DNA from: an uncultured Candidatus Saccharibacteria bacterium
GTDB lineage: Bacteria > Patescibacteriota > Minisyncoccia > 2-02-FULL-40-12 > GWA2-44-9
DNA length: 64,000 nucleotides
Direction of reading: 5' to 3'
Assembly: GCA_964444955.1 (NCBI GenBank)
Contig: CAYUJB010000001.1
Coordinates: 1,816-65,815 of the forward strand
In this document: one piece after another, positions 27,081 to 50,807 of the stretch
Numbering within the stretch: position 1 is the first letter of the stretch
How the letters are laid out: every line of letters starts with the position of its first letter
Made by a program: the position numbers and the translations under genes
The notes under the pieces: generated by a model
Seen by the model: the letters and a program-made list of their open reading frames with translations, nothing else
Told to the model about the DNA's origin: nothing
The model's database searches: none

Positions 27081-27118
27081 CGTTTGAGGCGCAGAAAATC
27101 TACACTTCGTGTGTATAT

Positions 27119-33751: not shown

Positions 33752-33856
33752 GAAACTTCAAGAAAATACCACAAAACTGGCGTTTCTGCTAGTGCGGTAA
33801 GGATTTGGCTCCTGCTGCGTCTTACGTAGTGTAACAACTTCATATATACTCCTCAC

Positions 33857-34459: not shown

Positions 34460-34465
34460 GCACGT

Positions 34466-35481: not shown

Positions 35482-35485
35482 AGGA

Positions 35486-36226
35486 CTATCCTTTTAGGAT
35501 TCCAAGTTTGTTTTCAAGGGATTGTTGAGGATAGAGGTCTGATGGATAAAGCTCGATGAGTGCAATCTTATAAGCTTGGCAGATTTCCTGTTTCTTTTTC
35601 ACTGAGTGATCGTAGCGCGGACTATCTTTCGCGAGACCGAAGTACTCGATGAATGTGTCCCCTACACGCCAATCAGCCCGATGCTTTGTGGTGGGGTAGC
35701 GGGCATCTCTTTCGTGAGGAATGTCATGCTGAGTAAGCCAATTATCTATTAGTGCCTCGGATATGGAATCGCAGATATGTCCATCGCGCGCCTTTGTTTT
35801 TGTTCGGCGATACATCTGACTATCGTGAGAGCGATTTGGTAGGAGACCTACTTCTTGCAGAAGAGCATTCCACGAACCATACTCACGGATTGCAGCGTAC
35901 GAAATACTTCCGAGTTCTCGACGGGAAGGAGTCCTCTTGAGAGTCTCCGAAAGCTTCTTTACTTCATTTATTATTTGCAGGGAAGTGTATTTTTGTTTTC
36001 CGAGTTCTCGACATGCAACTGAACAAAAAATACTCTTCGCGGTCTTACGAAATGTAATCCCGCAGGAGGCGCAAGTCTTTTCAGGCGCGGGTCTTTTGGG
36101 GTAGCGTTTGTTGTTAACGCTAGCTGAACACGAGCGTGAGCAATAATTGTGGAGTGAAATTGCAGAATCGGGACGTAAAAATGTCTTCCCACAGCTCGCA
36201 TTTTCACACGTGAGCATTTGATTCAT
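35486..36226 (-). CDS. zinc-ribbon protein with an uncharacterised C-terminal domain (hypothetical)
   Basis: Three CxxC/CxxxC pairs in the first 75 aa (CENASCGKTF...CSRSC, CASCGITF...CSVAC). The C-terminus has a DSISEALIDNW...ADWRVGDTFIEYFG pattern, possibly nuclease-like. Embedded among tRNA genes. Confidence 0.4.
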   Translation of the reverse strand: MNQMLTCENASCGKTFLRPDSAISLHNYCSRSCSASVNNKRYPKRPAPEKTCASCGITFRKTAKSIFCSVACRELGKQKYTSLQIINEVKKLSETLKRTPSRRELGSISYAAIREYGSWNALLQEVGLLPNRSHDSQMYRRTKTKARDGHICDSISEALIDNWLTQHDIPHERDARYPTTKHRADWRVGDTFIEYFGLAKDSPRYDHSVKKKQEICQAYKIALIELYPSDLYPQQSLENKLGILKG

Positions 36227-36232
36227 AAATTG

Positions 36233-36304
36233 TCAGGCTGCCGGGATTTGAACCCGGAGTCTCACCGACCCGAACGGTGCGTGTTACCGTTACACTACAG
36301 CCTG
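36233..36304 (-). tRNA. tRNA-Pro (anticodon CGG), CCA not encoded
   Basis: Acceptor CAGGCUG/CAGCCUG with C1:G72 as in bacterial tRNA-Pro. D-arm GTGT-AACGGTA-ACAC. Anticodon stem CACCG/CGGTG with loop TTCGGGT (G37). T-arm CCGGG-TTCAAAT-CCCGG. Confidence 0.8.
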
Positions 36305-36435
36305 TTGTATCTGCACAGTATACTGCATTTTACTTGATATTACTAGCATTCTAAGCTCCAGCAGCGCGAGCGCGATTATAAAAAAAACCGAGCACTTCAG
36401 TGCTCGGTTTGGCGTTACTAATTTCTTCCGTCCAG

Positions 36436-37872: not shown

Positions 37873-37877
37873 TCGTG

Positions 37878-37952
37878 TGGTGCCCCCGAAAGGAATCGAA
37901 CCTCCATCGTACCCTTAGGACGGGTCTGCTCTATCCGTTGAGCTACGGGGGC
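37878..37952 (-). tRNA. tRNA-Arg (anticodon CCU), CCA encoded
   Basis: Acceptor GCCCCCG/CGGGGGC plus discriminator A and CCA. D-arm GCTC-AACGGATA-GAGC. Anticodon loop GTCCTAA. The anticodon stem has one G27-A43 mismatch. The T-stem GGAGG/CCTTT has two G-U pairs. Confidence 0.65.
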
Positions 37953-38095
37953 GACGGATTACCAAATACCTTGCTAGAGTACCCTTTTTATGATATTTTT
38001 TCAAACGCATTCATTACGAAATGGGCCCATATGAATACATATAGGGCCCGGCGCTCACATCCATAAGATTTAGACAATCTTCTGTATGCTCACTT

Positions 38096-38169
38096 GGGCC
38101 CATAGTGAAGCGGTATCACGCATCCATGGCATGGATGAAGTCGGGGTTCGACTCCCCGTGGGTCCACCA
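38096..38169 (+). tRNA. tRNA-Ala (anticodon GGC), CCA encoded
   Basis: Acceptor GGGCCCA/UGGGUCC with G3:U70. D-arm GTGA-AGCGGTA-TCAC. Anticodon stem CATCC/GGATG with loop ATGGCAT. T-arm CGGGG-TTCGACT-CCCCG. Confidence 0.8.
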
Positions 38170-38218
38170 ACACACAAACGCTCCGCATCGCGCGGAGCGT
38201 TTGTGATATACTCTTGGT

Positions 38219-38950
38219 ATGGATGAAGAGAAGAAGGGTTCAATGAATCTCCCGGAATCGAAGTTGCCCCTGGAGAATGAGATGAAGGATATGCCACTCG
38301 ACTTTCGTTCCAGTTTTCACTGGCGTGTTTTTCGTATCATGGCGGAGTTTGTCGATGGATGGCAGTTTATCACCGACTATAAGAACACGGTCTCTATCCT
38401 CGGTTCAGCCCGTTTTACCGAAGAGAATAAATGGTACCAGGTAGCGCGTGAGTTAGGCGGCTTACTGGCAAAACAGAAAATTGGTGTCGTCACTGGCGGC
38501 GGGCCAGGCATCATGGAGGGCGGCAATCGCGGCGCCTATGAAGCCGGTGGCGAAAGCATCGGCATCACCATTCGCCTCCCCTTCGAGCAGCGCACCAACG
38601 CCTACATCACCAAGAGCCAACCATTCTACTATTTCTTTGTGCGCAAAGTGATGCTCTACTACACCGCGCAGGCGTACGTGTTTTTCCCTGGTGGATTTGG
38701 CACTCTCGATGAATTTTTTGAGCTGGTCACACTGGTGCAGACACACAAGGTAGACCGTGGCTCAGTGCCGATCATTCTGGTGGGCAAGGATTTTTGGGCT
38801 CCCCTGCTCGCCTTCATCAACGACACCGTTTTAGAAAAATATAAAACGATCGATAAAGATGATATGGCGATCTACCACCTCGTCGATACCGCGCAAGAAG
38901 CATTCGATATCATCGCGAAGTACCCGCCTCGCAAGGAGATCTATTACTAG
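38219..38950 (+). CDS. LOG family protein (cytokinin riboside 5'-monophosphate phosphoribohydrolase-like, TIGR00730-type)
   Basis: GGGPGIMEGGNRGA and PGGFGTLDEFFE motifs. The true start may be an internal Met (MNLPESK or MKDMPLD). Confidence 0.75.
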   Translation: MDEEKKGSMNLPESKLPLENEMKDMPLDFRSSFHWRVFRIMAEFVDGWQFITDYKNTVSILGSARFTEENKWYQVARELGGLLAKQKIGVVTGGGPGIMEGGNRGAYEAGGESIGITIRLPFEQRTNAYITKSQPFYYFFVRKVMLYYTAQAYVFFPGGFGTLDEFFELVTLVQTHKVDRGSVPIILVGKDFWAPLLAFINDTVLEKYKTIDKDDMAIYHLVDTAQEAFDIIAKYPPRKEIYY

Positions 38951-38971
38951 TTTCTCGTTCGTCCCAACTAT

Positions 38972-39000
38972 TTGATAAAAGCCGCCAAAAGTGGTAGAAT
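38972..39000 (+). promoter_or_regulatory. promoter for the tRNA-Ser pair (-35 TTGATA, 17-bp spacer, extended -10 TGgTAGAAT)
   Basis: TTGATA at 38972-38977 and TAGAAT at 38995-39000 preceded by TGG. The first tRNA starts at 39012. Confidence 0.45.
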
Positions 39001-39011
39001 TTGCGGCTGAA

Positions 39012-39098
39012 GGAAGCGTGGCTGAGTGGTTGAAGGCACCACACTCGAAATGTGGCATGGGGGTAACCCCATCGGAGGTTCGAATCCTCCCGCTTCCG
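39012..39098 (+). tRNA. tRNA-Ser (anticodon CGA), long variable arm
   Basis: GGAAGCG...CGCUUCC acceptor with discriminator G. Anticodon stem CCACA/TGTGG with loop CTCGAAA. 18-nt variable arm CATGGGGGTAACCCCATC. T-arm GGAGG-TTCGAAT-CCTCC. Confidence 0.8.
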
Positions 39099-39104
39099 CA
39101 GGTA

Positions 39105-39191
39105 GGTGGGGTGGCCGAGTGGTTGAAGGCACCGCTCTTGAAAAGCGGCATACGGGTAACCGTATCGTGAGTTCGAATCTCACCCCCACCG
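39105..39191 (+). tRNA. tRNA-Ser (anticodon UGA), long variable arm
   Basis: GGTGGGG/CCCCACC acceptor with discriminator G. Anticodon stem CCGCT/AGCGG with loop CTTGAAA. Variable arm CATACGGGTAACCGTATC. T-arm GTGAG-TTCGAAT-CTCAC. Confidence 0.8.
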
Positions 39192-39218
39192 CAGTGAAAT
39201 TGGTGTATACTTGCCGAT

Positions 39219-39842
39219 ATGAGTAATGTGCTTGATTTGAAGGATCATCAGCCGGGCGATGCGGTGCCCGAGCAGTTAGTTGCCGAAGTTGCGCCACTCG
39301 CGATTGCGCAGACCACATCGATCGACGAGATGGGTGAGATGCAAAGCGAAGGGTTGCCGCCAGCGACGTTGGCCGGTTTTCATTTTCCCACCGCCACTGA
39401 ATGGACGGCGCATCATCCTCTCCAGGGTTCAGCGCGCAAGCGCCACATGCTTTTCTCTGGGCTCATCGTACTGTTGGGCGTTTTGATTTCACTCTGGCAG
39501 CGCAGTCCCGCAGCGTTTATCGTGCTTCTTATCGGTGCTGGTGTACTCGAGCTACGCGAGCATATGAGTAAGCCCATGACCGTTGGCGTCGATGATCGTG
39601 GCATCAAGATTGATGATCATCGCTATGACCACGCGTCGTTTTCGTCATTTCACATTCACCGTATGCCAGATGATACGCTCGAGTTGAGTCTCCGTTCAGA
39701 TCAGCGCTTCCTCCCCCATCTACGCTTGCCGCTGGGCCAGCAGGATCCTCATCAGCTCCACGCTATTCTTACCCAGTACATTCCCCAGGGCGATCACAAG
39801 ATCCCGCTGGTGGACTACCTGATTCGGAAGCCGCGGGAGTAG
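39219..39842 (+). CDS. membrane protein, possibly a bacterial PH (bPH_2-like) domain protein
   Basis: 207 aa. Two adjacent TM helices (LFSGLIVLLGVLISLW, AAFIVLLIGAGVLEL) followed by a roughly 90-aa soluble domain. Confidence 0.35.
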   Translation: MSNVLDLKDHQPGDAVPEQLVAEVAPLAIAQTTSIDEMGEMQSEGLPPATLAGFHFPTATEWTAHHPLQGSARKRHMLFSGLIVLLGVLISLWQRSPAAFIVLLIGAGVLELREHMSKPMTVGVDDRGIKIDDHRYDHASFSSFHIHRMPDDTLELSLRSDQRFLPHLRLPLGQQDPHQLHAILTQYIPQGDHKIPLVDYLIRKPRE

Positions 39843-39998
39843 CGCACTCGGTAGGACGCTCGCTCCGCTCTCAGTAAAGCGGTTGTGCTCTCGGTATGCG
39901 GACATACCGAGCGACCTCGCTCGAAAGCAAAAGGAACGCGACGCGTTCCTTTTGCTTCACTCACTCAGTGCTCTCGGTAGGACGCTCGCTCCGCTCGC
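39843..39998. repeat. direct repeats derived from the 3' end of tRNA-Arg(GCG), plus palindromic hairpins
   Basis: Copy C3 (39966-39996) shares gtgctctcggtagga with the tRNA 3' end at 40176-40190, and shares ctcggtaggacgctcgctccgctc with copy C1 (39846-39870). A partial copy at 39884 (gtgctctcggta) runs into the palindrome CTCGGTATG-cgga-CATACCGAG. Confidence 0.5.
39929..39953. terminator. bidirectional intrinsic terminator hairpin
   Basis: AAAAGGAACGCG-a-CGCGTTCCTTTT: a perfect 8-bp GC-rich stem flanked by an A-run and a T-run. Confidence 0.5.
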
Positions 39999-40138
39999 TA
40001 TCTCACGCGAGTCGGGCTCGATTGCCTATGGCTATTCTCGCCCTCACTTTCTGAAACCATGCGGTTTCAGTTCTTCCACCACGGGAGAGACTTTCTCTCC
40101 CGACCCCTCTCTGTTCGATTCCTGCCCAGGACGAGTAA

Positions 40139-40170
40139 CAACAACGCCCAGATATATCTGGGCGTTGTTG
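40139..40170. terminator. perfect 32-nt palindrome hairpin at the 3' end of tRNA-Arg(GCG)
   Basis: CAACAACGCCCAGATA|TATCTGGGCGTTGTTG ends 8 nt from the tRNA 3' end, so it is a likely tRNA transcript terminator. Confidence 0.5.
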
Positions 40171-40177
40171 TACCTGT

Positions 40178-40248
40178 GCTCTCGGTAGGAATCGAACCTA
40201 CATTGCTAGCTCCGCAAGCTAGCGTCCTATCCATTGAACGACGAGAGC
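40178..40248 (-). tRNA. tRNA-Arg (anticodon GCG by hand fold), CCA not encoded
   Basis: Acceptor GCTCTCG/CGAGAGC with discriminator A. Anticodon stem CTAGC/GCTAG is perfect, with loop TTGCGGA. T-arm GTAGG-TTCGATT-CCTAC. An Arg GCG anticodon is unusual, so the identity call is moderate. Confidence 0.65.
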
Positions 40249-41598: not shown

Positions 41599-42156
41599 TT
41601 ACCGCGTTGCCTGCACGATCGTTATGGTCTTGCCGGCAATCATTCCCGTGACCGTTCGAGCAGGTCCCGAGTTTCCCGATATGAAGAAGTTCGTACTTCC
41701 CTTCCCCAACCCAGACGCCCCACTCGTGATGATTACCCATCCTGGGTTTGAGTTCAGGCTTGCGGTCCACGGACAGTCGGCTCTCGACGCAGTTACCTGG
41801 AGGACTCCGGGCCCTCCTTGATATCCGATTGTGAGCGTAGGATCAACCTTGAGCGTACACGCAAGTGTCGGCGTCGGCGTTGGTGGTGCTGGGGGTGGCG
41901 TCGACTGTGGAGGCGCCACGGTCGGCGTAGGAGCCGGCGGCCGAGGCGTCGGCTGTGGAGGCGCCGGCGTAGGCGCAACCGTCGGAGGTCGCGGCGTCGG
42001 GGTTGCTGTCACTGACGGCCCTGATGGTGTACCGCAGCCGTCCTTGTCGCACCCGCATCCGGGCACGACGACAACGACACAAAGAACGATGATGAGACTG
42101 ATTGTTCGGAATAGACGTGAGATCACGGGCTTCCCTCCTGGGTTGTTAAAAAGCAT
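41599..42156 (-). CDS. secreted protein with a Pro/Thr-rich linker and a C-terminal beta-rich domain
   Basis: N-terminal TM/signal (ISLIIVLCVVVVVP), a roughly 60-aa PT-rich linker (PTPRPPTVAPTPAPPQPTPRPPAPTPT), and a 100-aa C-terminal domain. Confidence 0.5.
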   Translation of the reverse strand: MLFNNPGGKPVISRLFRTISLIIVLCVVVVVPGCGCDKDGCGTPSGPSVTATPTPRPPTVAPTPAPPQPTPRPPAPTPTVAPPQSTPPPAPPTPTPTLACTLKVDPTLTIGYQGGPGVLQVTASRADCPWTASLNSNPGWVIITSGASGLGKGSTNFFISGNSGPARTVTGMIAGKTITIVQATR

Positions 42157-42245: not shown

Positions 42246-42274
42246 TTGACAAAAAATAATCAGTAGTATATACT
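42246..42274 (+). promoter_or_regulatory. candidate promoter (-35 TTGACA, 17-bp spacer, -10 TATACT) in an AT-rich leader
   Basis: TTGACA at 42246-42251 and TATACT at 42269-42274, roughly 60 nt upstream of the surface-protein gene at 42335. Confidence 0.3.
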
Positions 42275-42334: not shown

Positions 42335-43615
42335 ATGAACATAAAAACCTCGTTTTTGCAGGGTTTCCGAGTATCAACCGTTATGGGACTTTTGAGCCTT
42401 CTTTTACTGTCTCCGCTCATGTTCGTGCCCCAAGCTAACGCCGACACTCTTTTGGTGTCTGCTGGGCTGACCGCTTCCCCTGGTACGATATGTATCGGCC
42501 AGTCGACGCATTTGAACTGGACATCTACGAATGCCACAAGCATCGTCATCAGCCCAGGGGTTGGCTCTGTTAACCCGTACGGAGGATTGGATGTGTATCC
42601 TACTCAGACTACGACATATACCATCACCGCGAGCAACACTACGGGCGGATATGGTTCATCGAACACCGGATCGGTTACGGTGTACGTCACTGGTTCTTGC
42701 GGCACCCCCACCCCTACTCCGTACAACAACGCACTCTACTGCTCGGCTACCTACTCCTACGCAAACTCTGGTGACCTCGTTTCCTTCAACGCATGGGGTG
42801 GTAACGGTACCTTCTCGTGGAATGCGACCGATGGTACCCCTTCGTACGGTTACGGTTCTTCCTTTTCGTCCCGCTTCTACAACCCGTCCTGGTACTCGGT
42901 GAGCCGTATGGTGACGGTCACGAGTGGCTATCAGACTGCCAACTGCAATGTGACCATCTATGCCGGTGGTACGACATGGACACCAACCCCAACGCCCTGG
43001 GTGAATCCCGCAGTTGATCTTGCGTTAACACAGGTTGGCCGCAACGTGACCCGTGGGCAGAGTGGTGAGTATGCTTCTTTGACGGCTCGCGGTGGCGACA
43101 CACTCGACCTGATCGTGCGCACGCGCTCGGTGAACAACTCGTACCTCTACAACACCTTTGTGACTGAGCAGCTCCCTACCGGTTTCAACTACATCCCTGG
43201 TTCTACCACGGTCAATGGGTATGTTGTTGCCGATGGTATCACCTCGACCGGCATCAATGTGGGTACTGTTGCTCCGTATGCACAGACAACCATCAAGTTC
43301 TCGGTTCGCGTTGATGGTGCCTACGTTCCTACCTGGGGCACTACGACCGTCAACAGCATCGCACAGGCACGCGCCGACAATGTTGTGACGCGCTCGGTAT
43401 CCTTGCCGATTACCCTCGGATCAAACGCGAGTATCGCAAACATTTCTTCCGTGAAGACCGGTCCTACCGACTCGCTCTGGCTCGCCCTCATGGTTGCCTT
43501 TTTGGCAACGGGTGCTTACGCCGTGTACCTGCGCACTGATCGTTTCGGTCGCCGCATGGCGCTCGCCGAAGTCGCTACACTCGCTCGCACCTCCGGTCCG
43601 AACTTTGTGAAGTAA
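42335..43615 (+). CDS. cell-surface protein with an Ig-like domain, a DUF11-like domain and a C-terminal VKTGP-TM sorting signal
   Basis: Signal peptide. Cys-bracketed Ig-like domain (CSATYSYANSGD...ANCNVTIYAG). DUF11-like block (RGGDTLDLIVRTRSVNN...EQLPTGFNYIPGSTTVNGY). C-terminus SSVKTGPTD, then TM LWLALMVAFLATGAYAVYL, then RTDRFGRR. Confidence 0.6.
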   Translation: MNIKTSFLQGFRVSTVMGLLSLLLLSPLMFVPQANADTLLVSAGLTASPGTICIGQSTHLNWTSTNATSIVISPGVGSVNPYGGLDVYPTQTTTYTITASNTTGGYGSSNTGSVTVYVTGSCGTPTPTPYNNALYCSATYSYANSGDLVSFNAWGGNGTFSWNATDGTPSYGYGSSFSSRFYNPSWYSVSRMVTVTSGYQTANCNVTIYAGGTTWTPTPTPWVNPAVDLALTQVGRNVTRGQSGEYASLTARGGDTLDLIVRTRSVNNSYLYNTFVTEQLPTGFNYIPGSTTVNGYVVADGITSTGINVGTVAPYAQTTIKFSVRVDGAYVPTWGTTTVNSIAQARADNVVTRSVSLPITLGSNASIANISSVKTGPTDSLWLALMVAFLATGAYAVYLRTDRFGRRMALAEVATLARTSGPNFVK

Positions 43616-43683: not shown

Positions 43684-44340
43684 ATGCGTCTTCACCATCG
43701 CGGGCGGACGATTGCTATTCGCTTGTTTGTTATTTTCATTATTACCTTTGCCGGAGCGTTTTTCTTGTTGAACATTAAGTTTGTCGAAAAGAACGTGCAG
43801 TACATTCTGGCGCCCAGCACCATCACGTCGCGCGACACGCTCGGTGACGCAATCCGCCTCCTCCCCCTCTCTGAGAAGATCGAAGAGAAACCACTTTCCA
43901 ACAAGGCGACACTCGTGATTGATAAGCTGGGCATTCGCGCGCCCATCGTGTTCAATGTTGCCAACGACAACGACACCATCTACAAGCAGCTGGAGCAAGG
44001 TGTGGTGCATTATAGCGACACCGCCAAGCCGGGACTCCCCGGTGTGTCCATTGTGCTGGGGCACAGCTCTGCTTACCCGTGGTACAAGGGCGACTACGGT
44101 GCGGTCTTTGCGCTCTTGAGCAAGCTCGCTGTGGGCGATCGTTTCTATGTGCAGTACGACGATAACCGCACGTTCGTGTATGAGATGACGCAGTCGCTCA
44201 TTTTCAACCCCTTCGTCAAAGACGATCGCCTCACCGCACTTGAGAACGCACCAGGAAGCACTCTGCTTTTGATTAGCTGCTACCCGGTGGGAACGAACTA
44301 CAAACGTATTGCGATTCAGGCGATACTAGTGAAGATATAA
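43684..44340 (+). CDS. sortase (class uncertain)
   Basis: N-terminal TM anchor. Catalytic His in SIVLGHSSAY, Cys in the TLxTC-like STLLLISCYPVG, and Arg in YKRIAIQAILV. Start set to ATG 43684 because the ORF-track start at 43657 lies inside the upstream terminator. Confidence 0.75.
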   Translation: MRLHHRGRTIAIRLFVIFIITFAGAFFLLNIKFVEKNVQYILAPSTITSRDTLGDAIRLLPLSEKIEEKPLSNKATLVIDKLGIRAPIVFNVANDNDTIYKQLEQGVVHYSDTAKPGLPGVSIVLGHSSAYPWYKGDYGAVFALLSKLAVGDRFYVQYDDNRTFVYEMTQSLIFNPFVKDDRLTALENAPGSTLLLISCYPVGTNYKRIAIQAILVKI

Positions 44341-44366: not shown

Positions 44367-46421
44367 ATGAATGAGCGCCTCGAGAGTATTCGAGAATTTT
44401 TTCGAGAAAATCCACGCATGTGGATTGTGGCTGTTGGCGCGGTGCTCATCGCCGGTGGCGTCGCGTGGTATGTATTCCGTGGAACGTCGGTTGATCTTGG
44501 TAAATCGAATGCCCAACAGAGTGGCGGAGTTTGTGGTGACGGGGTGTGTGATGTAACAGAAGATAGCACATGCCCATCAGACTGTGGTCCCGGAACAGGC
44601 GGGGGTGGAGGCGTTGTTTGTAGTGCGACATTTCGATCGTGCCAAGGCACCGATGTGTTTCAGCACTACTCAAATTGCAACGGAGCTATCATCGAGCAGT
44701 GTGCAAGCGGGTGCAATCCGGGTAACGCCGATAACACCGCGGCTTTCTGTATCGGATCTTCGACGACACCGGGAATCACGCCGAAGGCTACACCCCCAAC
44801 CCCCCCACCTCCTACTCCGAGCGGCGACTGCACCAAGGGAGCAGATGGGTTGTGGTACTGCAAAAACCTGTCCTGTGGTCTAGCGGGCAATGGCTCCAAT
44901 CCCCCTGCAGGCCCGGCCAGTAGTATCCAGGTAGTCCAGTACCGCACCGTGTGTGACGACGTCGAGGGTCCTAATAATCCTCAAGTTGGGTGCAAGATCT
45001 TTATGGATGCGACGCCAAAGATTGGCGGACAAGAAGGATATCCACCACGAGATCCGTCCTGGAGCTGCACCAACTCGATGACCATCCCCGAGACCGACGG
45101 TCGCTACTGCTACACGCCATTTGGGAAAACAACCGTCACGGGTCCGGTGACCTGCTGCGCCAACACGGGACTACCGGGTGATTGCGTTTCATTTACCGTG
45201 CAACCCCGGTCGGGAGGCACCACGTCCCCCACCGCCAGCCCTGCGCCTGCGCTGCTGAAAGTCTCGTGCAGCGCAAACGCGGCAACGCTCACGTGGAATA
45301 TTCCTGCGCGTGCAAACTCGAATGCCGTGCAGCGTATGGTCCCCGGTGGTACGTGGACATGGGTGCTCCAAGACGCTACGGGAGCGCAAACTAGCTTTGT
45401 TGATTCGCCCTTGATCGCGGGTGCGCAGTGGCGCGTGAAGTCTGCGCCAAGCGTCGCGTCCAATGTGGTTTCCTGCGCTGGTCCGGTGAGCACACCCATT
45501 TCTGGTATTCCGCCCGCACAAGGCGATCCGGTTGAGTGTTTTCCCGCTCGTCAATCAGTGAGTCTCAATGAGACTGCACATCTGCAGGCGCAAGGCGGTA
45601 CGAATGTGTTCACGTGGAATGTGACGCAAGGAGGAGCAATTCAGGAGGGTGGCAACGAGTACATCGGTGTGTCATATCGTACATCTGGATTGAAAACATT
45701 ACGCGTCAGTAGTGGCGGCACGAGCGCAACGTGCACGATCGATGTGGCCGGAAGCATCGCGGGTGGTTCGCCGACGCCAACGCCTTCAAGTACCGTTGCC
45801 CCAGGACAGGCGTCATTGGTAGTTGAGAAGACCGCGCAAAATACTACTACCGGAGATCCCGTTGAGCGATCAGCCGTTACGGTTTTTCCTGGTCAAACGG
45901 TACAGTTTCGAGTCCGAATTACCAACGTGGGGTCGGCGCCCGCTATCGGGGTGAGCGCAGAGGATACGCTCCCTGCTGGTATGAGTTTTGTACCAGATTC
46001 AACCACGTTGAATGGGCAGACCGTTTCGGATGATTCGATTATCTTTGGCGGGCTTACTGTAGGAACGGTCGCACCTGGAGCGTCTACCATTGTCGAATGG
46101 TCAGCTGTTGCCGATCAGGCGGCTACACTTGCTTCGGGTCCCAATCGATCTACGCCCGAAGTGGTGGTGACCACGGATAATACTGATACCGGTGGAACCG
46201 ACAAGACGCGGGCGCAGATGCCGGTGGTGGTGTATGGTGCCGGCTCATCGGCGGGTGCCGGCGAAGTTCCAACGGGTCCGGGAGGTGCAGTAATCGTGGC
46301 GCTTATGACGGCCGCTGCTCTCACCCTTCTCTACAGCGGCTACACACGCTCCCCTACGTATCGACGTCGTGAGGCAGAGGACGTGAGCGAAGATCCGGGC
46401 CCACTCGATTTTCGTAGCTAA
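44367..46421 (+). CDS. large surface protein (Cys-rich module, PT linker, Ig-like and DUF11-like domains) with a C-terminal EVPTGP-TM-YTRSPTYRRREAEDVSEDPGPLDFRS signal
   Basis: 684 aa. N-terminal TM (MWIVAVGAVLIAGGVAWYVF), PT linker (ITPKATPPTPPPPTPSGD), Cys-bracketed Ig-like repeat (CFPARQS...CTIDVAG), DUF11-like block (TVFPGQTVQFRVRITNVGSAPAIGVSAEDTLPAGMSFVPDST). Confidence 0.6.
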   Translation: MNERLESIREFFRENPRMWIVAVGAVLIAGGVAWYVFRGTSVDLGKSNAQQSGGVCGDGVCDVTEDSTCPSDCGPGTGGGGGVVCSATFRSCQGTDVFQHYSNCNGAIIEQCASGCNPGNADNTAAFCIGSSTTPGITPKATPPTPPPPTPSGDCTKGADGLWYCKNLSCGLAGNGSNPPAGPASSIQVVQYRTVCDDVEGPNNPQVGCKIFMDATPKIGGQEGYPPRDPSWSCTNSMTIPETDGRYCYTPFGKTTVTGPVTCCANTGLPGDCVSFTVQPRSGGTTSPTASPAPALLKVSCSANAATLTWNIPARANSNAVQRMVPGGTWTWVLQDATGAQTSFVDSPLIAGAQWRVKSAPSVASNVVSCAGPVSTPISGIPPAQGDPVECFPARQSVSLNETAHLQAQGGTNVFTWNVTQGGAIQEGGNEYIGVSYRTSGLKTLRVSSGGTSATCTIDVAGSIAGGSPTPTPSSTVAPGQASLVVEKTAQNTTTGDPVERSAVTVFPGQTVQFRVRITNVGSAPAIGVSAEDTLPAGMSFVPDSTTLNGQTVSDDSIIFGGLTVGTVAPGASTIVEWSAVADQAATLASGPNRSTPEVVVTTDNTDTGGTDKTRAQMPVVVYGAGSSAGAGEVPTGPGGAVIVALMTAAALTLLYSGYTRSPTYRRREAEDVSEDPGPLDFRS

Positions 46422-46494
46422 AATGTTGATATGTCGGTGTATAAGAAATCTCCCAGGGTGTATACTCAAGGGAGATTTTCTTAATCGTATATCC

Positions 46495-46932
46495 ATGAAT
46501 ACACGGCAAACCATTCTCGTATCGATTGCAATTCTTCTTGTCGCTGTACTAGCTCTCTGGTGGTACTTCGGATTTTCGCTTGAGTTTATGAAATTCTTTG
46601 CCGCCGATTCAGCAACAACCAATACTGCCACCACGAGTGCGTCCCCTACAGTTTCACCATTGGGAGATAATTCTACCGCAAGTGTAGTAGTTGCCTGCTC
46701 GCCGCGCCTACAGAGTGTAAAGACCGGTGTGGCTGCGCAGTTCACCGCCAGTGGTGGATCTGGCAGCTATGAATGGTTCGCACCAAGTGGCACGCCAGAT
46801 ACCGGAACCGCGAAAGACTTTTCGGTAGTGTATACAGTGGCGGGTACCAAGAAGGTCACGGTGCAAGCTGCGCGGGGAGATGATTCAGGGAAAGTAGACA
46901 GCGTTGAGTGCACGGTACAAGTGGCCCCATAA
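46495..46932 (+). CDS. small anchored protein with the GFSLEFMKFFAA N-terminal motif and one Cys-bracketed Ig-like domain
   Basis: Start at ATG 46495 (MNTRQTILVSIAILLVAVLALWWYFGFSLEFMKFFAAD). Single domain CSPRLQSVKTGVAAQFTASGGSGSYEWFAP...VECTVQVAP. A TATACT hexamer lies at 46461-46466. Confidence 0.5.
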   Translation: MNTRQTILVSIAILLVAVLALWWYFGFSLEFMKFFAADSATTNTATTSASPTVSPLGDNSTASVVVACSPRLQSVKTGVAAQFTASGGSGSYEWFAPSGTPDTGTAKDFSVVYTVAGTKKVTVQAARGDDSGKVDSVECTVQVAP

Positions 46933-46939
46933 TGTGAAC

Positions 46940-49021
46940 ATGCAATCACCCCTCTCAGTAATCGCGGCATTCTTTCGTGCTAATAAGACATTCTTTACGA
47001 TTCTCTTGGGAGTCGTATTCGTGACCGCCGGATACTTTTGGTGGCAGGCAGGATTCACGCTGGATGTGAGTCGTTTCTTTGCGGCAGGTTGCGATGCTGA
47101 GCAGCTCAACGGTACATTTCGTCGCGGGCAAGTTTCGATCGTCAATAATAATGATTCCACGTGTGATGTGCACGTAACGGTGTGGGAGGTGTATTACCCG
47201 GCATCTGATCCACGTTTTATTAGTACCCAGGTGCTTTTCGATCAGGCATATGAGGGGTCGGTGGCACCCGGAGCCACTGCCACATTATCAGTGGATATCC
47301 CGGACTGTGTGTACCAGTATGATATTGGAACCGGAACGCCGCGCAGTACCCTCCCCTACGGATACGATCTTATCGATAGCGGTATCGTTTCACCCACCGG
47401 CTTGTACTGCGGCGAAACGGGTCCGACTCCAACCCCAACTCGTACCCCAACCCCATCCGTGTCTCCGACCCCGACACCTATAGCACTTGCGTGTGCAGTG
47501 GTACCGACGCAAGTTGTCGTGGGTTCGCCTGCAACCGTTACAGCAACGGGCGGCACCGGCGCGTACACCTGGTCTGCACCTGGCGGCACACTATCTTCGA
47601 CTACTACAAATCCTGCCAATGTCTCCTATGCAACTGCGGGCAGTAAGACGGTGACTGTGACAAGCGGTGGCAATCAAAACACCTGCTCGGTCGTGGTTGT
47701 TGCCGTGACGTTACCAACTCCTACGCCATCTGTTTCTGCATCGCCGTCTCCGACGGTTTCCCCACTCACGTGCGCTCCTTCGAGTCAGACAGTGGCTATT
47801 GGAGCTCAGGTACAAGCCGCGTCATCTGGCGGCGGAACGCAGATCTATAGTTGGTCTGCACCTGGAGGAAATCCGAGTACGTCCACGAATACCGGCTCTT
47901 TGTTTACCACATCGTATGGTGCCGCGGGCAGCTTCATAATTACTGTTACTGGTGGCGGGCAGAGCGCTACGTGCGCAGTGACGGTGCAGGGCCCCACGGC
48001 ATCCCAGCCGCATATCTTACTAACGAAACTTGCAAGAAATATCACCCATGGCTCCAATGAAGCCGACAGCGTTACCGCTTCACCGGGTAATGATATCGAG
48101 TTCTCGCTCCGCGTTCTCTCTGATGGTGTCGGCACGGTGGTGGGAGCAACCATTCGCGACGCTCTTCCGGCAGGCCTGACCTACGTTCGGGGATCAACGA
48201 GAATTGATTCCGCAACTGCCGCGGACGGCATCGTTTCCACAGGACTCGCCCTGGGCGATATAGCAGCCGGGCGCGCAATCACGATTCGATTCCGCGCCCT
48301 CGTATCCCCTGCTTCGTTCTTTGCTGCCGGAACCAGCGTGCTCACCAATACTGCGTATGCGCGCGGCACGAATACGCCAGAAGTGAGTGATGTCGCGTTT
48401 GTTTCAGTGATGAACGCTCCAGCGCAGCTAAGTGCTTCTCTTGCCAAGATGGGCCGTAACACCACGCGCGGTGAAACTGGTGAGCATTCGCCCGTTCGAT
48501 CCTCTCCAGGTGAGACGATTCAATTTGTATTACGAGCTCGCAATACGTCCTCGGGGACACTAACCAACGTTCTACTACGAGATATTCTTCCTTCGGAGAT
48601 TACGCTTGTTCCGGGTAGCGTTCGTATTGGCACCACGACTGCTTCAGACACGCTCGTGACCACAGGTGCATCATTGGGAACGCTCGTGCCAGGACAGGAG
48701 GTGCTCGTTACCTTTTCCGGAGTCGTAGCTGCAGCCGGAGCTCTTCCTGCAGGAGCTACTACGGTGCTTAATACTGCAACGCTTATGGGAACCGGAATCG
48801 GTACTATTACCGCGCAGCTGCCAGTCGTGATTACGAATGGTGGCGTTGCGGTGCCACCCGTGAACACTGGCCCCGCTGAAACCACTATGCTTGCACTTAT
48901 CATTTCCGCAGTCGTTACACTGCTCTACGTGGGGTATACGAGTACGGATACGTATCGACGACACGAAGCGAGCATACTCGCACAAGAGTCGCGCAACGAG
49001 CCATCTGATTTTAATTCCTAA
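46940..49021 (+). CDS. large surface protein: GFTLDVSRFFAA N-terminal motif, PT linker, two Ig-like repeats, DUF11-like domains, C-terminal PVNTGP-TM-YTSTDTYRRHEA signal
   Basis: Start at ATG 46940 (MQSPLSVIAAFFRANKTFFTILLGVVFVTAGYFWWQAGFTLDVSRFFAAG). PT linker PTPTPTRTPTPSVSPTPTP. Two Cys-bracketed repeats (CAVVPTQ..., CAPSSQT...). Tail SILAQESRNEPSDFNS. Confidence 0.6.
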   Translation: MQSPLSVIAAFFRANKTFFTILLGVVFVTAGYFWWQAGFTLDVSRFFAAGCDAEQLNGTFRRGQVSIVNNNDSTCDVHVTVWEVYYPASDPRFISTQVLFDQAYEGSVAPGATATLSVDIPDCVYQYDIGTGTPRSTLPYGYDLIDSGIVSPTGLYCGETGPTPTPTRTPTPSVSPTPTPIALACAVVPTQVVVGSPATVTATGGTGAYTWSAPGGTLSSTTTNPANVSYATAGSKTVTVTSGGNQNTCSVVVVAVTLPTPTPSVSASPSPTVSPLTCAPSSQTVAIGAQVQAASSGGGTQIYSWSAPGGNPSTSTNTGSLFTTSYGAAGSFIITVTGGGQSATCAVTVQGPTASQPHILLTKLARNITHGSNEADSVTASPGNDIEFSLRVLSDGVGTVVGATIRDALPAGLTYVRGSTRIDSATAADGIVSTGLALGDIAAGRAITIRFRALVSPASFFAAGTSVLTNTAYARGTNTPEVSDVAFVSVMNAPAQLSASLAKMGRNTTRGETGEHSPVRSSPGETIQFVLRARNTSSGTLTNVLLRDILPSEITLVPGSVRIGTTTASDTLVTTGASLGTLVPGQEVLVTFSGVVAAAGALPAGATTVLNTATLMGTGIGTITAQLPVVITNGGVAVPPVNTGPAETTMLALIISAVVTLLYVGYTSTDTYRRHEASILAQESRNEPSDFNS

Positions 49022-49022: not shown

Positions 49023-50807
49023 ATGCAAATTCCGCAAAAATTGAAAGATGCATTCGGTGTGGTGCAGCAGAAATTCTCCAGTGTATTTGATGCAACGCTG
49101 CGTTTCTATCGAGCCAACACTGCGATATCACTGAGCGCATTTACGATTTTTAGCGTATTGCTGATCATGTGGGCACGCATCGGATTTACCTTTGACGTGA
49201 GTCGCTTCTTCGCAGCAGAGGTGCATACCCCATCGGCACTCAACGTGCAGTGCGGTGCAACGCAGAATGTACTTACCTGGACACTGCCCGCGGGACATGA
49301 TTCCAATAGCATCATTCGAAACGTCGATGGTGGCACTGGTGTCTGGGTGTGTGGTGGGCCAAGCAATATCGCTCCCTGCACAACGCTCTCGGTGGCAACC
49401 TATACTGATAGAAATATCCAACCAGGACACACGTATGCCTATCGACACAAGGCGTGGGCGGATACGCCGTCAAACACCGTGACCTGTTCGACGGTTACTG
49501 CACCCACCCCGACTCCTTCCACAACTAGTACACCGACGCCGACGCCATCGCTTACCCCCACTCCCACACCACTCATTCCTCCCGCGGGGACCATTCTTGG
49601 CGCTTGTACTGGTGGTCGAAATCCAGTTATTACGGTACGTTACAGTAAGTTTCCTCCCCCAGGCGGAGATCAGACCGTCAACAGCAATGGCATGAACAAG
49701 ACCACCACTCCATTGGGTGGCACACCGACCGTGGTGCAATTGCCAGATTATAATCCTGTCGATCGAGGGCAATATTGGGAATTTCAGGATTCGCAAGTCA
49801 TCAGCGGCTATACCTATTCGTATCGAGCCAAATACACGCCAGCAGTGGGCACGAATACCATTACGTTTGTCGCATCAGAAGCGAATTGTGGTCCGTCGCT
49901 TCCTCCTCCGAGTCCCACGCCGTCTACAACCCCGACACCGATCTCCACACCGACACCGAGCGCAACACCCACTCCCTCCCCCACGCCACTGGTGTGCGCA
50001 CCCGCAACCCAGACAGTAGCGGCAGGCCAGGTGTTCTCGCTCACTGCGCAGGGTGGTACCGGGGTATATCAGTGGACCTACGGTGCATCGCAGACTGCTA
50101 CCGGAGCGGCATTGGTGACATCGCTCGCCACACCGGGGACGAGTGGGATTACACTCACATCTGGCGGTCAGTCGACAACCTGCCAGGTAATTGTACAGCC
50201 GGCGGTTGTAGCTCGAGGTACTGCAGCAGTTTCTAGTACGGGAAAGAACGTCTCAACGAATGGTGTCGAGTCTTCTTCAGTTCAGGTTCGTACCGGCCAG
50301 CAACTTCAGGTGCTGATACGCGCTCGGAATGCGGCAACACAAGCAAATATTACTGGCGTTCTGGTGCGCTCGCAGCTCCCCGAAGGTTTAGTATATGTAC
50401 CCGGATCAACGCTTATCGCAGGAGTTGCGGCAGGAAGCGACGTAATCGTCACCACGGGGCTACCCCTTGGCGCTATTGGTCCTGGTCAAGAAATTCTCGT
50501 AACGTATCGCGCGACAGTGAATGCCGCTGCCTTTGCGGTTGGTACGACAGGCGTACGCGTGCAATCATCCGTGCAAGCCACTGACGTGCCAGGTGCAAGC
50601 GATGATCTTGATGTTGTCGTGACAAAGCCGACGCCCGGCACATCGGGGACGGTCCAAACTGGTCCCGGCGATGCGCTCTTGGCGGCATTTCTGGTCTCGT
50701 CAATCATCACACTGCTCTACGTCTCCTACACGCATACATCGACATACAAGCGTCACGAGATTGGGGCGATTACTGAAGATCGTGACCCCCTCGACTTCAG
50801 AAGCTAA
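49023..50807 (+). CDS. large surface protein: GFTFDVSRFFAA N-terminal motif, PT linkers, Ig-like repeat, DUF11-like domain, C-terminal TVQTGP-TM-YTHTSTYKRHE...DPLDFRS signal
   Basis: Start at ATG 49023 (MQIPQKLKD...) one nt after the upstream stop. The ORF-track start at 48891 overlaps the previous gene. Motifs TFDVSRFFAAE, PTPTPSTTSTPTPTPSLTPTPTP, CAPATQTVAAGQ...CQVIVQP. Confidence 0.6.
   Translation: MQIPQKLKDAFGVVQQKFSSVFDATLRFYRANTAISLSAFTIFSVLLIMWARIGFTFDVSRFFAAEVHTPSALNVQCGATQNVLTWTLPAGHDSNSIIRNVDGGTGVWVCGGPSNIAPCTTLSVATYTDRNIQPGHTYAYRHKAWADTPSNTVTCSTVTAPTPTPSTTSTPTPTPSLTPTPTPLIPPAGTILGACTGGRNPVITVRYSKFPPPGGDQTVNSNGMNKTTTPLGGTPTVVQLPDYNPVDRGQYWEFQDSQVISGYTYSYRAKYTPAVGTNTITFVASEANCGPSLPPPSPTPSTTPTPISTPTPSATPTPSPTPLVCAPATQTVAAGQVFSLTAQGGTGVYQWTYGASQTATGAALVTSLATPGTSGITLTSGGQSTTCQVIVQPAVVARGTAAVSSTGKNVSTNGVESSSVQVRTGQQLQVLIRARNAATQANITGVLVRSQLPEGLVYVPGSTLIAGVAAGSDVIVTTGLPLGAIGPGQEILVTYRATVNAAAFAVGTTGVRVQSSVQATDVPGASDDLDVVVTKPTPGTSGTVQTGPGDALLAAFLVSSIITLLYVSYTHTSTYKRHEIGAITEDRDPLDFRS

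What the first reader, a model, noticed from the sequence alone, without database searches (positions are those of the whole stretch)
46495..46932. A roughly 75-aa Cys-bracketed Ig-like module is repeated at least seven times across the array, once as a stand-alone single-domain gene
The pattern C-x-P-x-x-Q-x-V-x-x-G-(x6-8)-A-x-G-G-x-G-x-Y-x-W-(x15-25)-Y-x-x-x-G-(x5)-T-(V/L)-T-S-G-G-x-x-x-x-C-x-V recurs in genes 42335, 44367, 46495, 46940 (twice) and 49023. Gene 46495-46932 is essentially the N-terminal anchor plus one such module. The modules are joined by Pro/Thr-rich linkers (PTPTPTRTPTPSVSPTPTP), which are likely O-glycosylation or extension stalks. This reads as a modular, rapidly diversifying adhesin or fibre family.
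Basis: seen in the sequence. Interest (0 to 1): 0.5.

Follow-up and report, generated by a model that had tools for sequence, protein, structure and literature searches.

The report
Disulfide-bracketed PKD-like domains in surface proteins
The repeated roughly 70-residue cysteine-bracketed unit is real and is a divergent PKD-type immunoglobulin-like domain used in a conserved operon of sortase-anchored surface proteins in an uncultivated ultra-small bacterium; it is a solid but fairly ordinary finding.

Summary
Window 46495-46932 is a real, conserved 145-aa gene made of a membrane helix, a disordered Thr/Ser linker and one beta-sandwich module. The module occurs six times in five adjacent genes, not seven or more. 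Leave-one-out profiles recover every copy (E 1e-8 to 1e-16).

The genes form an operon with a sortase. Four large proteins carry CLIPPER/DUF11 domains and a V-x-T-G-P sorting signal. The single-module gene never carries one. The same gene order, ending at recG, is found in six other Patescibacteria genome loci (Paceibacterota, Yanofskybacteria and others), with module-by-module orthology and no DNA-level repeats. This is therefore an old, stable locus, not a rapidly diversifying one.

Most likely the modules are disulfide-stapled stalk or binding domains of cell-wall-anchored fibrillar surface proteins. I file it as a new member of a known kind, of modest interest.

The parts
42246..42274 (+). 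Sigma-70-like promoter candidate (TTGACA-17-TATACT) in front of the first gene of the operon
   Evidence: It matches 11 of 12 consensus positions. This is a consensus match only.
42335..43615 (+). Gene 1 (426 aa). It has a signal peptide, an unrelated Cys-bracketed Ig-like domain (C53-C122), one PKD-like module, a DUF11/CLIPPER-like C-terminal part and a VKTGP sorting signal (43451-43465).
   Evidence: (TIGR01451 at 22.6 bits, just below the cutoff of 24)
42737..42961 (+). PKD-like module of gene 1 (Cys136...Cys204)
   Evidence: (leave-one-out E 1.6e-8)
43684..44340 (+). Sortase (218 aa; the ORF could also start at GTG 43657). It has an N-terminal membrane helix and an LLISC active-site motif.
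   Evidence: Pfam PF04203 E 5.3e-19. It scores below every NCBIfam class cutoff. Gene calls of 218 aa appear. The motif is shown.
44367..46421 (+). Gene 2 (684 aa). It has a Cys-rich N-terminal region, an FN3-like Cys-bracketed domain, one PKD-like module, a CLIPPER/DUF11 domain and a VPTGP sorting signal (46266-46280).
   Evidence: (DUF11 at 36.9 bits, above the cutoff of 24.6). The FN3-like label comes from reading the sequence, not from a tool.
45534..45749 (+). PKD-like module of gene 2 (Cys391...Cys456)
   Evidence: (leave-one-out E 2.5e-14)
46422..46494 (+). Intergenic region with two boxes conserved in seven genomes: ATGT[TG]GATATGT directly after the gene 2 stop, and TATA[AC]T about 30 nt downstream. 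It may be an internal promoter or regulatory site.
   Evidence: alignment of upstream regions. Function is inferred only.
46495..46932 (+). The flagged gene (145 aa). It consists of a membrane anchor, a linker and one PKD-like module, and has no sorting signal.
46501..46602 (+). N-terminal hydrophobic helix plus the conserved juxtamembrane motif WWYxGFSLEFMKFFA (aa 3-36)
   Evidence: The AF2 model shows a helix at aa 3-36. W22, W23, Y24, G26, F27, F31, F34, F35 and A36 are invariant. The motif is shared with genes 4 and 5.
46603..46692 (+). Thr/Ser-rich linker, predicted disordered (aa 37-66)
   Evidence: pLDDT is below 50 over aa 38-61. Its length varies between homologues, and some carry a Cys-rich insert.
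46693..46926 (+). PKD-like module of the stand-alone gene (Cys68...Cys139)
46940..49021 (+). Gene 4 (693 aa). It has the anchor motif, a low-confidence N-terminal beta domain, two PKD-like modules, two CLIPPER domains (48014-48415 and 48434-48838) and a VNTGP sorting signal (48860-48874).
   Evidence: (precomputed PF00801 and PF01345)
47414..47485 (+). Pro/Thr linker ETGPTPTPTRTPTPSVSPTPTPIA
   Evidence: It lies within the segment 133-178 that has pLDDT below 50.
47489..47701 (+). PKD-like module 1 of gene 4 (Cys185...Cys249)
   Evidence: E 2.4e-16; pLDDT 86-90, same strand pattern
47708..47770 (+). Pro/Thr/Ser linker TLPTPTPSVSASPSPTVSPLT
47768..47989 (+). PKD-like module 2 of gene 4 (Cys278...Cys345)
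   Evidence: E 3.4e-16; pLDDT 61-85
49023..50807 (+). Gene 5 (594 aa). It has the anchor motif, FN3-like Cys-bracketed domains, long Pro/Thr linkers, one PKD-like module, a DUF11-like domain and a VQTGP sorting signal (50652-50666).
49992..50198 (+). PKD-like module of gene 5 (Cys325...Cys387)
   Evidence: (E 6.6e-15)

Best explanation
The repeated unit is a divergent member of the PKD family of Ig-like beta-sandwich domains. A cysteine at the start of its first strand and another near the start of its last strand most likely form an intradomain disulfide.

Six copies sit in five neighbouring genes of one operon in a Patescibacteria (CPR; Paceibacterota-type) chromosome. The operon encodes one sortase and four large secreted proteins. 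[quoted passage not shown]

Proposed mechanism, all steps inferred:
1. The proteins are exported by Sec.
2. Their domains are oxidatively folded outside the membrane.
3. The sortase cleaves after the Thr of V-x-T-G-P and couples them to the cell wall.
4. They then project as fibrillar surface proteins. The PKD-like and CLIPPER domains form the stiff, covalently stapled stalk, and the variable N-terminal parts make contacts.

The disulfide joins the two ends of the module, so it would protect almost the whole domain from unfolding and proteolysis. This is functionally analogous to the isopeptide bonds of CnaA/CnaB domains.

The flagged 145-aa gene is an ancient, conserved paralogue, closest to the gene 4 modules. 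It keeps the family's N-terminal anchor motif and one module but has no sorting signal. It should therefore stay tethered to the cytoplasmic membrane, displaying a single PKD-like domain on a flexible linker. Most likely it is an accessory or partner of the wall-anchored proteins rather than a fibre subunit.
For: Shown:
- Homology of the six copies.
- Confident beta-sandwich models with the same strand pattern in three copies.
- Pfam PKD matches 5 of 6 modules. It is above the curated cutoff for the 46495 module alone (24.1 vs 23.5) and for gene 4 (33.8). It is much stronger in homologues, at E 1e-18 to 1e-25. The public precomputed annotation of gene 4 is PF00801 plus PF01345.
- Cys pair: 40 of 41 modules in the window, in four related genome loci and in the homologues of the stand-alone gene have both cysteines. 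The single exception has lost both (GISP...VYAWVTV), and none has lost only one.
- 190 of 195 modules in 65 homologous proteins have both cysteines. The other five are truncated alignments.
- All Cys counts in the five proteins are even.
- Sortase: PF04203 at E 5e-19.
- The sorting signal V-x-T-G-P plus helix plus basic tail is present in all four large genes in the window and in L005, L006 and L008, and in all four found on the short L007 contig. It is absent from every stand-alone orthologue in those four loci.
- CLIPPER/DUF11 is above cutoff. It is described as an isopeptide-bonded stalk domain of fibrillar adhesins that co-occurs with sorting domains and PKD_4 (PMC12617251).
- The same gene order up to recG is seen in six further genome loci.
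- CPR genomes are enriched in sortase and in MdbA-like oxidoreductase/VKOR (PMC6744442).

Inferred: export, disulfide formation, sortase cleavage and wall attachment, stalk role, and the accessory role of the 145-aa protein.
Against: - The disulfide was not measured.
- The N-terminal helices of genes 4 and 5 and of the stand-alone gene look like uncleaved anchors. The hydrophobic stretch is 22 residues long, and Phe sits at -3 of the only Ala-Ala site. A wall-anchored protein would need this anchor removed, and no cleavage site or protease is identified.
- No recognisable adhesive domain was found. The N-terminal domain of gene 4 is modelled with low confidence.
- The strict one-to-one conservation of five genes next to housekeeping genes fits a fixed structural assembly at least as well as it fits adhesins.
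- The sortase belongs to no defined class, so its acceptor substrate is unknown.
Confidence: 0.6

Rival explanations
1. The operon builds a sortase-polymerised pilus or fibre. The four V-x-T-G-P proteins would be covalently joined head to tail by the operon's own sortase. The membrane-anchored single-module protein would be the base, terminator or acceptor that holds the fibre to the cell.
For: - A dedicated sortase is embedded among several substrates.
- CnaA-like CLIPPER domains carry conserved K/D/N triads, as in Gram-positive pilins.
- The sortase fits no housekeeping class.
- The five structural genes are conserved one to one, as expected for a defined assembly.
- A small single-domain member with invariant Lys119 exists.
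- CPR bacteria do build lineage-specific Ig-like filaments with small single-domain components and membrane-anchored terminators (Pam pili).
Against: - No YPK pilin motif or E-box was found in any of the five proteins.
- The sortase scores 33 bits against a class C cutoff of 160.
- The substrates are large, with long disordered linkers, which is unlike compact pilins.
- Lysines are very scarce (4 in 693 aa), and the conserved ones sit at the predicted intradomain isopeptide positions.
Confidence: 0.15
2. The proteins are constitutive envelope or S-layer-like structural components with no role in adhesion. The PKD-like modules would act as lattice or spacer domains.
For: - The locus is core and chromosomal, lying between the tRNA/CCA-enzyme/LOG genes and recG in every genome examined.
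- PKD-type domains occur in the S-layer proteins that appear among the structural hits: Deinococcus HPI and an archaeal surface-layer protein, and the archaeal surface-layer protein and SbsC.
- Orthology is stable rather than diversifying.
Against: - The N-terminal regions do not align between orthologues, and module numbers differ. That is more typical of exposed interaction surfaces.
- Long flexible Pro/Thr linkers argue against a tight lattice.
- CLIPPER-containing proteins are mostly described as fibrillar adhesins.
Confidence: 0.2
3. The shared pattern is only G/T/S-rich composition, or the 145-aa ORF is a decayed fragment of a larger gene.
For: The modules are rich in G, T and S. The whole 145-aa protein scores below the Pfam PKD cutoff (19.4 vs 23.5).
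Against: - Leave-one-out profile E-values are 1e-8 to 1e-16.
- Folds are confident and consistent.
- There are 22 invariant positions across 12 homologues, including the anchor motif and both cysteines.
- The same short gene sits at the same operon position in six other genome loci.
Confidence: 0.02

Closest known systems
PKD domain (Pfam PF00801), for example the PKD domains of Clostridium histolyticum collagenases ColG/ColH (PDB 4tn9, 4u7k), archaeal surface-layer protein PKD domains (1l0q) and AAVR PKD domains
   Different: The conserved Cys pair brackets the domain. Canonical PKD domains such as those of ColG lack it, and the cysteine-free generic hits match only the middle of the profile. 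Identity to solved PKD domains is only 16-23%. Several copies fall below the Pfam cutoff.
Fibrillar adhesins with CLIPPER (DUF11, PF01345) stalks (PMC12617251)
   Same: The build is the same: signal, variable N-terminal part, repeated Ig-like stalk domains, C-terminal sorting signal. CLIPPER scores above cutoff, with K/D/N positions conserved at equal spacing in both domains of gene 4. PKD_4 is listed among the domains that co-occur with CLIPPER.
   Different: The host lineage is Patescibacteria. The sorting motif is V-x-T-G-P with a long conserved cytoplasmic tail. There is a conserved N-terminal anchor motif. Only one or two CLIPPER domains are present per protein. A sorting-signal-free single-module paralogue is a fixed member of the operon.
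Sortase-dependent surface proteins and pili of Gram-positive bacteria, including Actinomyces oris FimA, whose folding needs the MdbA/VKOR disulfide machinery (as cited in PMC6744442)
   Same: A sortase gene sits among its substrates. The C-terminal signal is tripartite. Ig-like domains are stabilised by covalent internal bonds. CPR genomes are enriched in sortase and MdbA-like proteins.
   Different: No pilin motif or E-box is present. The sortase is outside classes A-F by NCBIfam cutoffs. The sorting motif is not LPXTG. Attachment chemistry is untested.
Pam pili of CPR bacteria (bioRxiv 10.64898/2026.03.03.709456)
   Same: It is a CPR-restricted operon of Ig-like surface proteins with paired cysteines. 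It includes a single-domain member and membrane-anchored components.
   Different: Pam pili assemble by donor-strand exchange with PapD/FimC-like chaperones and have no sortase. They occur in Saccharimonadia and Microgenomatia. I could not obtain Pam sequences, so no homology test was made.
Bacterial Ig-like domains of intimin and invasin (Big_1/Big_2)
   Different: The E-values are not significant. PKD profiles and PKD structures score better.

Membership tests
PKD domain (Pfam PF00801) | Profile score at or above the curated gathering cutoff (23.5 bits) | tested here: met
   The 46495 module alone scores 24.1 bits and gene 4 scores 33.8 bits. The precomputed annotation of gene 4 is PF00801. 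Caveats: the whole 145-aa protein scores 19.4, the gene 5 module reaches only PKD_4 at 13.8, and one module has no hit. Membership of the weaker copies therefore rests on their homology to the stronger ones.
PKD domain (Pfam PF00801) | Beta-sandwich fold superposable on solved PKD domains | tested here: met
PKD domain (Pfam PF00801) | Conserved WDFGDG-type motif after strand C (feature recalled from my own knowledge) | tested here: inconclusive
   The modules keep Y-x-W, followed 3-4 residues later by G-G or S-G (W28 and G33 are invariant). The acidic residues are not conserved.
Sortase substrate (cell-wall sorting signal) | C-terminal tripartite signal (recognition pentapeptide, hydrophobic helix, basic tail) with a sortase encoded in the genome | tested here: met
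   The four large genes carry VKTGP, VPTGP, VNTGP and VQTGP, followed by a helix and R/K-rich residues. The adjacent sortase matches PF04203 at E 5e-19. The pentapeptide is a variant, not LPXTG.
Sortase substrate (cell-wall sorting signal) | The flagged gene 46495-46932 carries the signal | tested here: not met
   The protein ends ...ECTVQVAP directly after the module. None of the 12 homologues or the syntenic orthologues has a sorting signal.
Sortase substrate (cell-wall sorting signal) | Cleavage by sortase and covalent attachment to peptidoglycan | not testable with these tools
   This needs biochemistry.
Sortase-assembled Gram-positive pilus | Class C (pilus-specific) sortase | tested here: not met
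   NF033745 class_C_sortase scores 33.4 bits against a cutoff of 160. The best class match is D, at 45.5 against 165.
Sortase-assembled Gram-positive pilus | Pilin motif (YPKN Lys) and E-box in the subunits | tested here: not met
   Regular-expression search found no [YFVI]PK motif and no E-box-like motif in any of the five proteins. A divergent acceptor lysine cannot be excluded.
CLIPPER / DUF11 (PF01345) isopeptide domain | Profile score above cutoff (24.6 bits) | tested here: met
   Gene 2 scores 36.9 bits and gene 4 scores 59.8 bits with two stretches. TIGR01451 scores 52.1 and 68.1. Genes 1 and 5 are just below the TIGR01451 cutoff (22.6 and 20.3 against 24).
CLIPPER / DUF11 (PF01345) isopeptide domain | Lys-Asn isopeptide with a catalytic Asp | tested here: inconclusive
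   K363/D407/N470 and K503/D548/N611 are invariant or nearly so and have equal spacing. Genes 1 and 5 have Q or S at the Lys position. Geometry was not checked.
Fibrillar adhesin (stalk plus adhesive domain plus anchor) | Repeated stalk domains and a cell-surface anchor | tested here: met
   PKD-like and CLIPPER domains plus a sorting signal.
Fibrillar adhesin (stalk plus adhesive domain plus anchor) | A recognisable adhesive (ligand-binding) domain | tested here: inconclusive
   The N-terminal regions have no Pfam or NCBIfam match. In gene 4 this region is modelled at low confidence.
Pam pilus system of CPR | Donor-strand-exchange pilins with PapD/FimC-like membrane-anchored chaperones | not tested
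The operon here contains a sortase and no chaperone-like gene that Pfam recognises.

The most novel reading that the evidence does not exclude
The conserved six-gene set (gene 1, sortase, gene 2, single-module protein, gene 4, gene 5) is a Patescibacteria-specific, sortase-built surface fibre of fixed composition. The N-terminally anchored one-module protein would be its membrane base or acceptor. The shared N-terminal motif (F-F-R-A-N-K ... W-W-x-x-G-F-T-L-D-x-x-R-F-F-A-A) and the long conserved C-terminal tail (...D-P-L-D-F-R-S) would be dedicated targeting and assembly signals. End-to-end disulfide clamps on every non-CLIPPER domain would take over the mechanical role that isopeptide bonds play in Gram-positive pili.
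Probability: 0.15. Interest if true: 0.6.

Novelty: new member of a known kind. Interest (0 to 1): 0.3.

Why it matters
Patescibacteria (CPR) are thought to live attached to other cells, yet few of their surface structures are known. This locus is a conserved, vertically inherited sortase operon whose products are built from disulfide-stapled PKD-like domains and CLIPPER domains. That makes it a concrete candidate for a cell-wall-anchored attachment apparatus in Paceibacterota-type lineages.

The module itself adds little to what is known about PKD domains beyond a well-defined Cys-bracketed subfamily. Among the best 150 of 3,843 protein clusters matching at E <= 1e-3, 420 of 629 modules have both cysteines.

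The fixed single-module membrane protein and the conserved N- and C-terminal signals are the parts most worth experimental follow-up.

Tried and rejected
- Search for a seventh copy: none in any reading frame of the window. The first Ig-like domain of gene 1 and the 185-aa ORF at 41599-42156 (-) are different domains.
- Recent duplication or gene conversion: no DNA repeats link the modules. Only short Pro/Thr-codon repeats were found.
- Longer ORF from 46423: rejected. Its apparent conservation in P0006 is explained by conserved intergenic DNA boxes, and other genomes have stop codons there.
- PDB sequence search with the family profile gave only non-significant hits, to intimin and NCAM.
- Foldseek of the full-length gene 4 model against the PDB returned only generic multi-Ig chains with TM 0.1-0.2, which is uninformative.
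- The AlphaFold-database fold search (afdb50) was not available.
- Measuring the Cys-Cys distance was not possible, because model coordinates are not exposed to the scripting tool.
- dN/dS across strains could not be done. The only near-identical contigs (L001-L004) encode the same proteins, and the next relatives are 37-66% identical, too far for synonymous rates.
- Type IV pilin idea for the G-F-T-L-D motif: rejected. The motif follows the hydrophobic helix instead of preceding it, and the acidic residue is at +4, not +5 (my reading).
- Looking for disulfide-forming enzymes: no thioredoxin or VKOR family appeared among the 31 larger ORFs scanned in the window. Smaller ORFs and the rest of the genome were not examined.
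Full report
**What is at the coordinates.** Window 46495-46932 is an ATG-to-TAA ORF of 145 aa on the + strand. The identical protein is called on independent metagenome contigs with the same neighbours. A search of 5.8 billion proteins found 12 homologues of 113-214 aa. Their alignment has 22 invariant positions:
- the N-terminal motif W22-W23-Y24-x-G26-F27...F31...F34-F35-A36;
- both cysteines, C68 and C139;
- P70, Q73, V75, G88, Y92, W94, Y113, G117, K119 and D135.

A longer ORF from 46423 is not the gene. In five of seven genomes the upstream frame contains stop codons. The apparent conservation there is explained by two conserved DNA boxes in the intergenic region.

**The repeat.** A relaxed form matches six stretches in five genes:
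- g42335 aa 136-206
- g44367 aa 391-458
- g46495 aa 68-141
- g46940 aa 185-251 and 278-347
- g49023 aa 325-389

A profile of the six, searched with filters off against all six reading frames of the 64-kb window, finds those six and nothing else (next E 1.5). The count is therefore six, not seven or more. The similarity is not compositional. Each copy is recovered by a profile built from the other five, at E 1.6e-8 to 2.4e-16. Pairwise identity is 21-46%. No DNA-level repeats connect the copies, so the duplications are old.

**Fold.**
- AlphaFold2 on the 12-sequence alignment gives a helix at aa 3-36, a low-confidence linker at aa 38-61, and a beta-sandwich at aa 66-145 with block pLDDT of 90-96.
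- The top five Foldseek hits are ColG/ColH PKD domains, at E 2.6e-4 to 5.2e-4 and TM 0.65-0.69 per target.
- Pfam PKD (PF00801) matches 5 of 6 modules. It scores 24.1 bits against a cutoff of 23.5 for the 46495 module alone, and 33.8 bits for gene 4. Homologues with more copies score E 1e-18 to 1e-25.
- The full-length model of gene 4 shows the same strand pattern in both of its modules (pLDDT 86-90 and 61-85). It also shows two confident CLIPPER domains and disordered Pro/Thr linkers.

**The cysteine bracket.**
- Of 41 modules from the window, four related genome loci and the homologues of the stand-alone gene, 40 have both cysteines. One (L005, gene 1, second module) has lost both, reading I...A. 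None has lost only one.
- In 65 homologous proteins, 190 of 195 modules have both cysteines, and the other five are truncated alignments.
- All five proteins have even Cys counts, and their other non-CLIPPER domains are also bracketed by cysteines.
- The first Cys lies in the first strand. The second lies three residues into the last strand in the short-hairpin copies.

A disulfide that ties the two ends of the domain together is the natural reading.

A profile search of 1.84 billion cluster representatives found 3,843 proteins at E <= 1e-3 and 1,154 at E <= 1e-10, some with up to 13 tandem copies. Among the best 150, 420 of 629 modules are Cys-bracketed. The very long proteins that lack the Cys pair match only the central part of the profile, so they are generic PKD-type arrays.

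**Context.**
- The five genes form a tight + strand operon with a sortase. The gaps are 26, 73, 7 and 1 nt, and a strong promoter-like site lies at 42246-42274.
- The sortase (PF04203, E 5e-19) falls below every NCBIfam class cutoff.
- The four large proteins carry CLIPPER/DUF11 domains near the C-terminus. They end with V-[KPNQ]-T-G-P, a hydrophobic helix, a basic stretch and an unusually long conserved tail ending in D-P-L-D-F-R-S or a variant.
- The 145-aa protein has none of this.
- CLIPPER was recently shown to be a CnaA-like, isopeptide-bonded stalk domain of fibrillar adhesins that co-occurs with sorting signals and PKD_4 (PMC12617251).
- In gene 4, K363/D407/N470 and K503/D548/N611 are conserved at equal spacing.
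- The rest of the window is ordinary chromosome, including dnaA, dnaN, yidC, a class A PBP, polA and recG.

**Organism and conservation.**
- Related loci come from Candidatus Paceibacterota and Yanofskybacteria genomes and from one genome labelled Saccharibacteria, all assembled from metagenomes.
- In six further genome loci (L005-L010) the order is the same: gene 1, sortase, gene 2, single-module gene, gene 4, gene 5, recG. The CCA-adding enzyme and LOG genes often lie upstream.
- Identity to orthologues is 60-67% for RecG and 67-72% for the sortase. It is 57-61% for the C-terminal part of gene 1, 48-57% for gene 4 and 37-54% for the single-module gene. It is roughly 38-43% for genes 2 and 5 where the positional orthologue was the best hit. 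The N-terminal parts do not align.
- Each window module is usually most similar to the module at the same position in other genomes, at 47-66%.
- Module number per gene does vary: 1,1,1,2,1 here, against 2,1,1,2,1, then 2,1,1,1,0, then 2,1,1,1,1, then 2,1,1,2,0.

The family is therefore modular and old, with variable tips, but it is not rapidly duplicating.

**Mechanism.** Everything in this mechanism is inferred rather than shown. I think the most likely reading is that these are cell-wall-anchored fibrillar surface proteins. The PKD-like modules and CLIPPER domains would form a covalently stapled stalk, using disulfide and isopeptide bonds respectively, on flexible Pro/Thr linkers. The variable N-terminal domains would make the contacts.

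A disulfide joining the first and last strands would shield nearly the whole domain from mechanical or proteolytic unfolding, much as isopeptide bonds do in Gram-positive pilins (my own knowledge). CPR genomes are enriched in sortase and in MdbA-like oxidoreductases with VKOR (PMC6744442). That would supply the chemistry, although none was seen in this window.

The 145-aa protein keeps the family's anchor motif and one module, lacks a sorting signal, and is fixed at one operon position. It should therefore remain on the membrane as an accessory or partner.

Open problems:
- The N-terminal helices of genes 4 and 5 look uncleavable.
- No adhesive domain is recognisable.
- The sortase's acceptor is unknown.

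**Rivals.**
- A sortase-polymerised pilus with the small protein as base is possible. However, no pilin motif, E-box or class C sortase was found.
- A non-adhesive envelope scaffold is consistent with the core-genome context and with the S-layer structural hits.
- The composition-artefact and gene-fragment readings are refuted.
- The recently described Pam pili of CPR are a different system: they use donor-strand exchange and chaperones, have no sortase, and occur in other classes.

**Verdict.** The unit is a Cys-bracketed subfamily of the known PKD domain, in a known kind of protein: a sortase-anchored, CLIPPER-containing surface protein. Public Pfam annotation already tags gene 4 as PKD plus CLIPPER. 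The interest lies in the conserved Patescibacteria operon and its fixed single-module member, not in the module itself.

Noticed in passing
window 46940-47080 and 49023-49200, and 46495-46602; also L005-L008 orthologues: The stand-alone gene and genes 4 and 5 share a conserved N-terminal motif with no Pfam or NCBIfam match. F-[FY]-R-A-N-[KR] precedes the hydrophobic helix in genes 4 and 5. W-[WA]-x-x-G-F-[ST]-[LF]-[DE]-x-x-[RK]-F-F-A-[AS] follows the helix in all three. It might play a role like the YSIRK-type signal-peptide motifs of Gram-positive sortase substrates. The only Ala-Ala site has Phe at -3, so signal-peptidase cleavage is doubtful.
   Followed up: partly
window 43451-43615, 46266-46421, 48860-49021, 50652-50807: The sorting signals have an unusually long cytoplasmic tail of about 25-30 aa, conserved across genomes. 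After the helix comes Y-x-x-[ST]-x-x-Y-[RK]-R-x-E, and the extreme C-terminus is [DE]-P-[LM]-D-F-[RK]-S. Gene 1 has its own conserved variant ending N-F-x-K. Classical LPXTG tails are short and merely basic. The conservation suggests that the tail is recognised by something.
   Followed up: partly
window 46422-46494: The intergenic DNA before the single-module gene has two boxes conserved in seven genomes. ATGT[TG]GATATGT lies right after the gene 2 stop codon. A TATA[AC]T box lies about 30 nt further on, 25-35 nt before the start codon. It may be an internal promoter or operator. The consensus scan did not call a canonical -35/-10 pair there.
   Followed up: partly
window 48014-48838 (gene 4 CLIPPER domains): K363/D407/N470 and K503/D548/N611 are invariant or nearly invariant across 19 orthologues and equally spaced in the two domains. 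They are candidate Lys-Asn isopeptide triads. The corresponding Lys is Q in gene 1 and S in gene 5.
   Followed up: partly
window 42335-43615 and 46940-49021: Lysine content is extremely low: 4 Lys in 426 aa (gene 1) and 4 Lys in 693 aa (gene 4). In gene 4, two of the four are the predicted isopeptide lysines.
   Followed up: no
homologues P0006, P0007, P0008, P0010, P0011 and loci L006, L008 (linker of the stand-alone gene): Some orthologues of the 145-aa protein carry a Cys-rich insert in the linker, with the pattern G-C-x-x-Q-x-[VI]-Q-C-x-x-x-P-C-[DN]-P-x-[LI]-V-C-P. It is absent from the window copy.
   Followed up: no
window 42335-42730 (gene 1 aa 40-125), 45260-45480 (gene 2) and 49250-49490 (gene 5): The other extracellular domains of these proteins are also bracketed by a Cys pair (C53/C122, C301/C370, and others). 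These are an Ig-like domain in gene 1 and FN3-like domains in genes 2 and 5. Every protein has an even number of cysteines. The domain types are my reading of the sequences and were not tested.
   Followed up: no
window 41599-42156 (- strand): A 185-aa ORF lies just upstream on the opposite strand. It has an N-terminal hydrophobic segment, a long Pro-rich linker (a 48-nt tandem repeat at the DNA level) and a C-terminal Cys-containing beta domain. It has no Pfam hit and does not contain this module.
   Followed up: no
window 16508-27081 (- strand): This is a block of large genes, mostly without Pfam matches. It includes a VirB4/TraG-like P-loop ATPase (18555-20309) and a protein with a bacterial TSP3 repeat (26140-27081). 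It may be a type IV secretion-like or conjugation-like cluster.
   Followed up: no
window 11691-14575 and 3920-5608: dnaA and dnaN are adjacent, so the window probably lies near the replication origin. A PilB-like type II/IV secretion ATPase (T2SSE, E 1e-120) is also present.
   Followed up: no
window 35486-36226 (- strand): An ORF with a homing-endonuclease-associated HNH repeat sits among a cluster of seven tRNA genes at 33680-40248.
   Followed up: no
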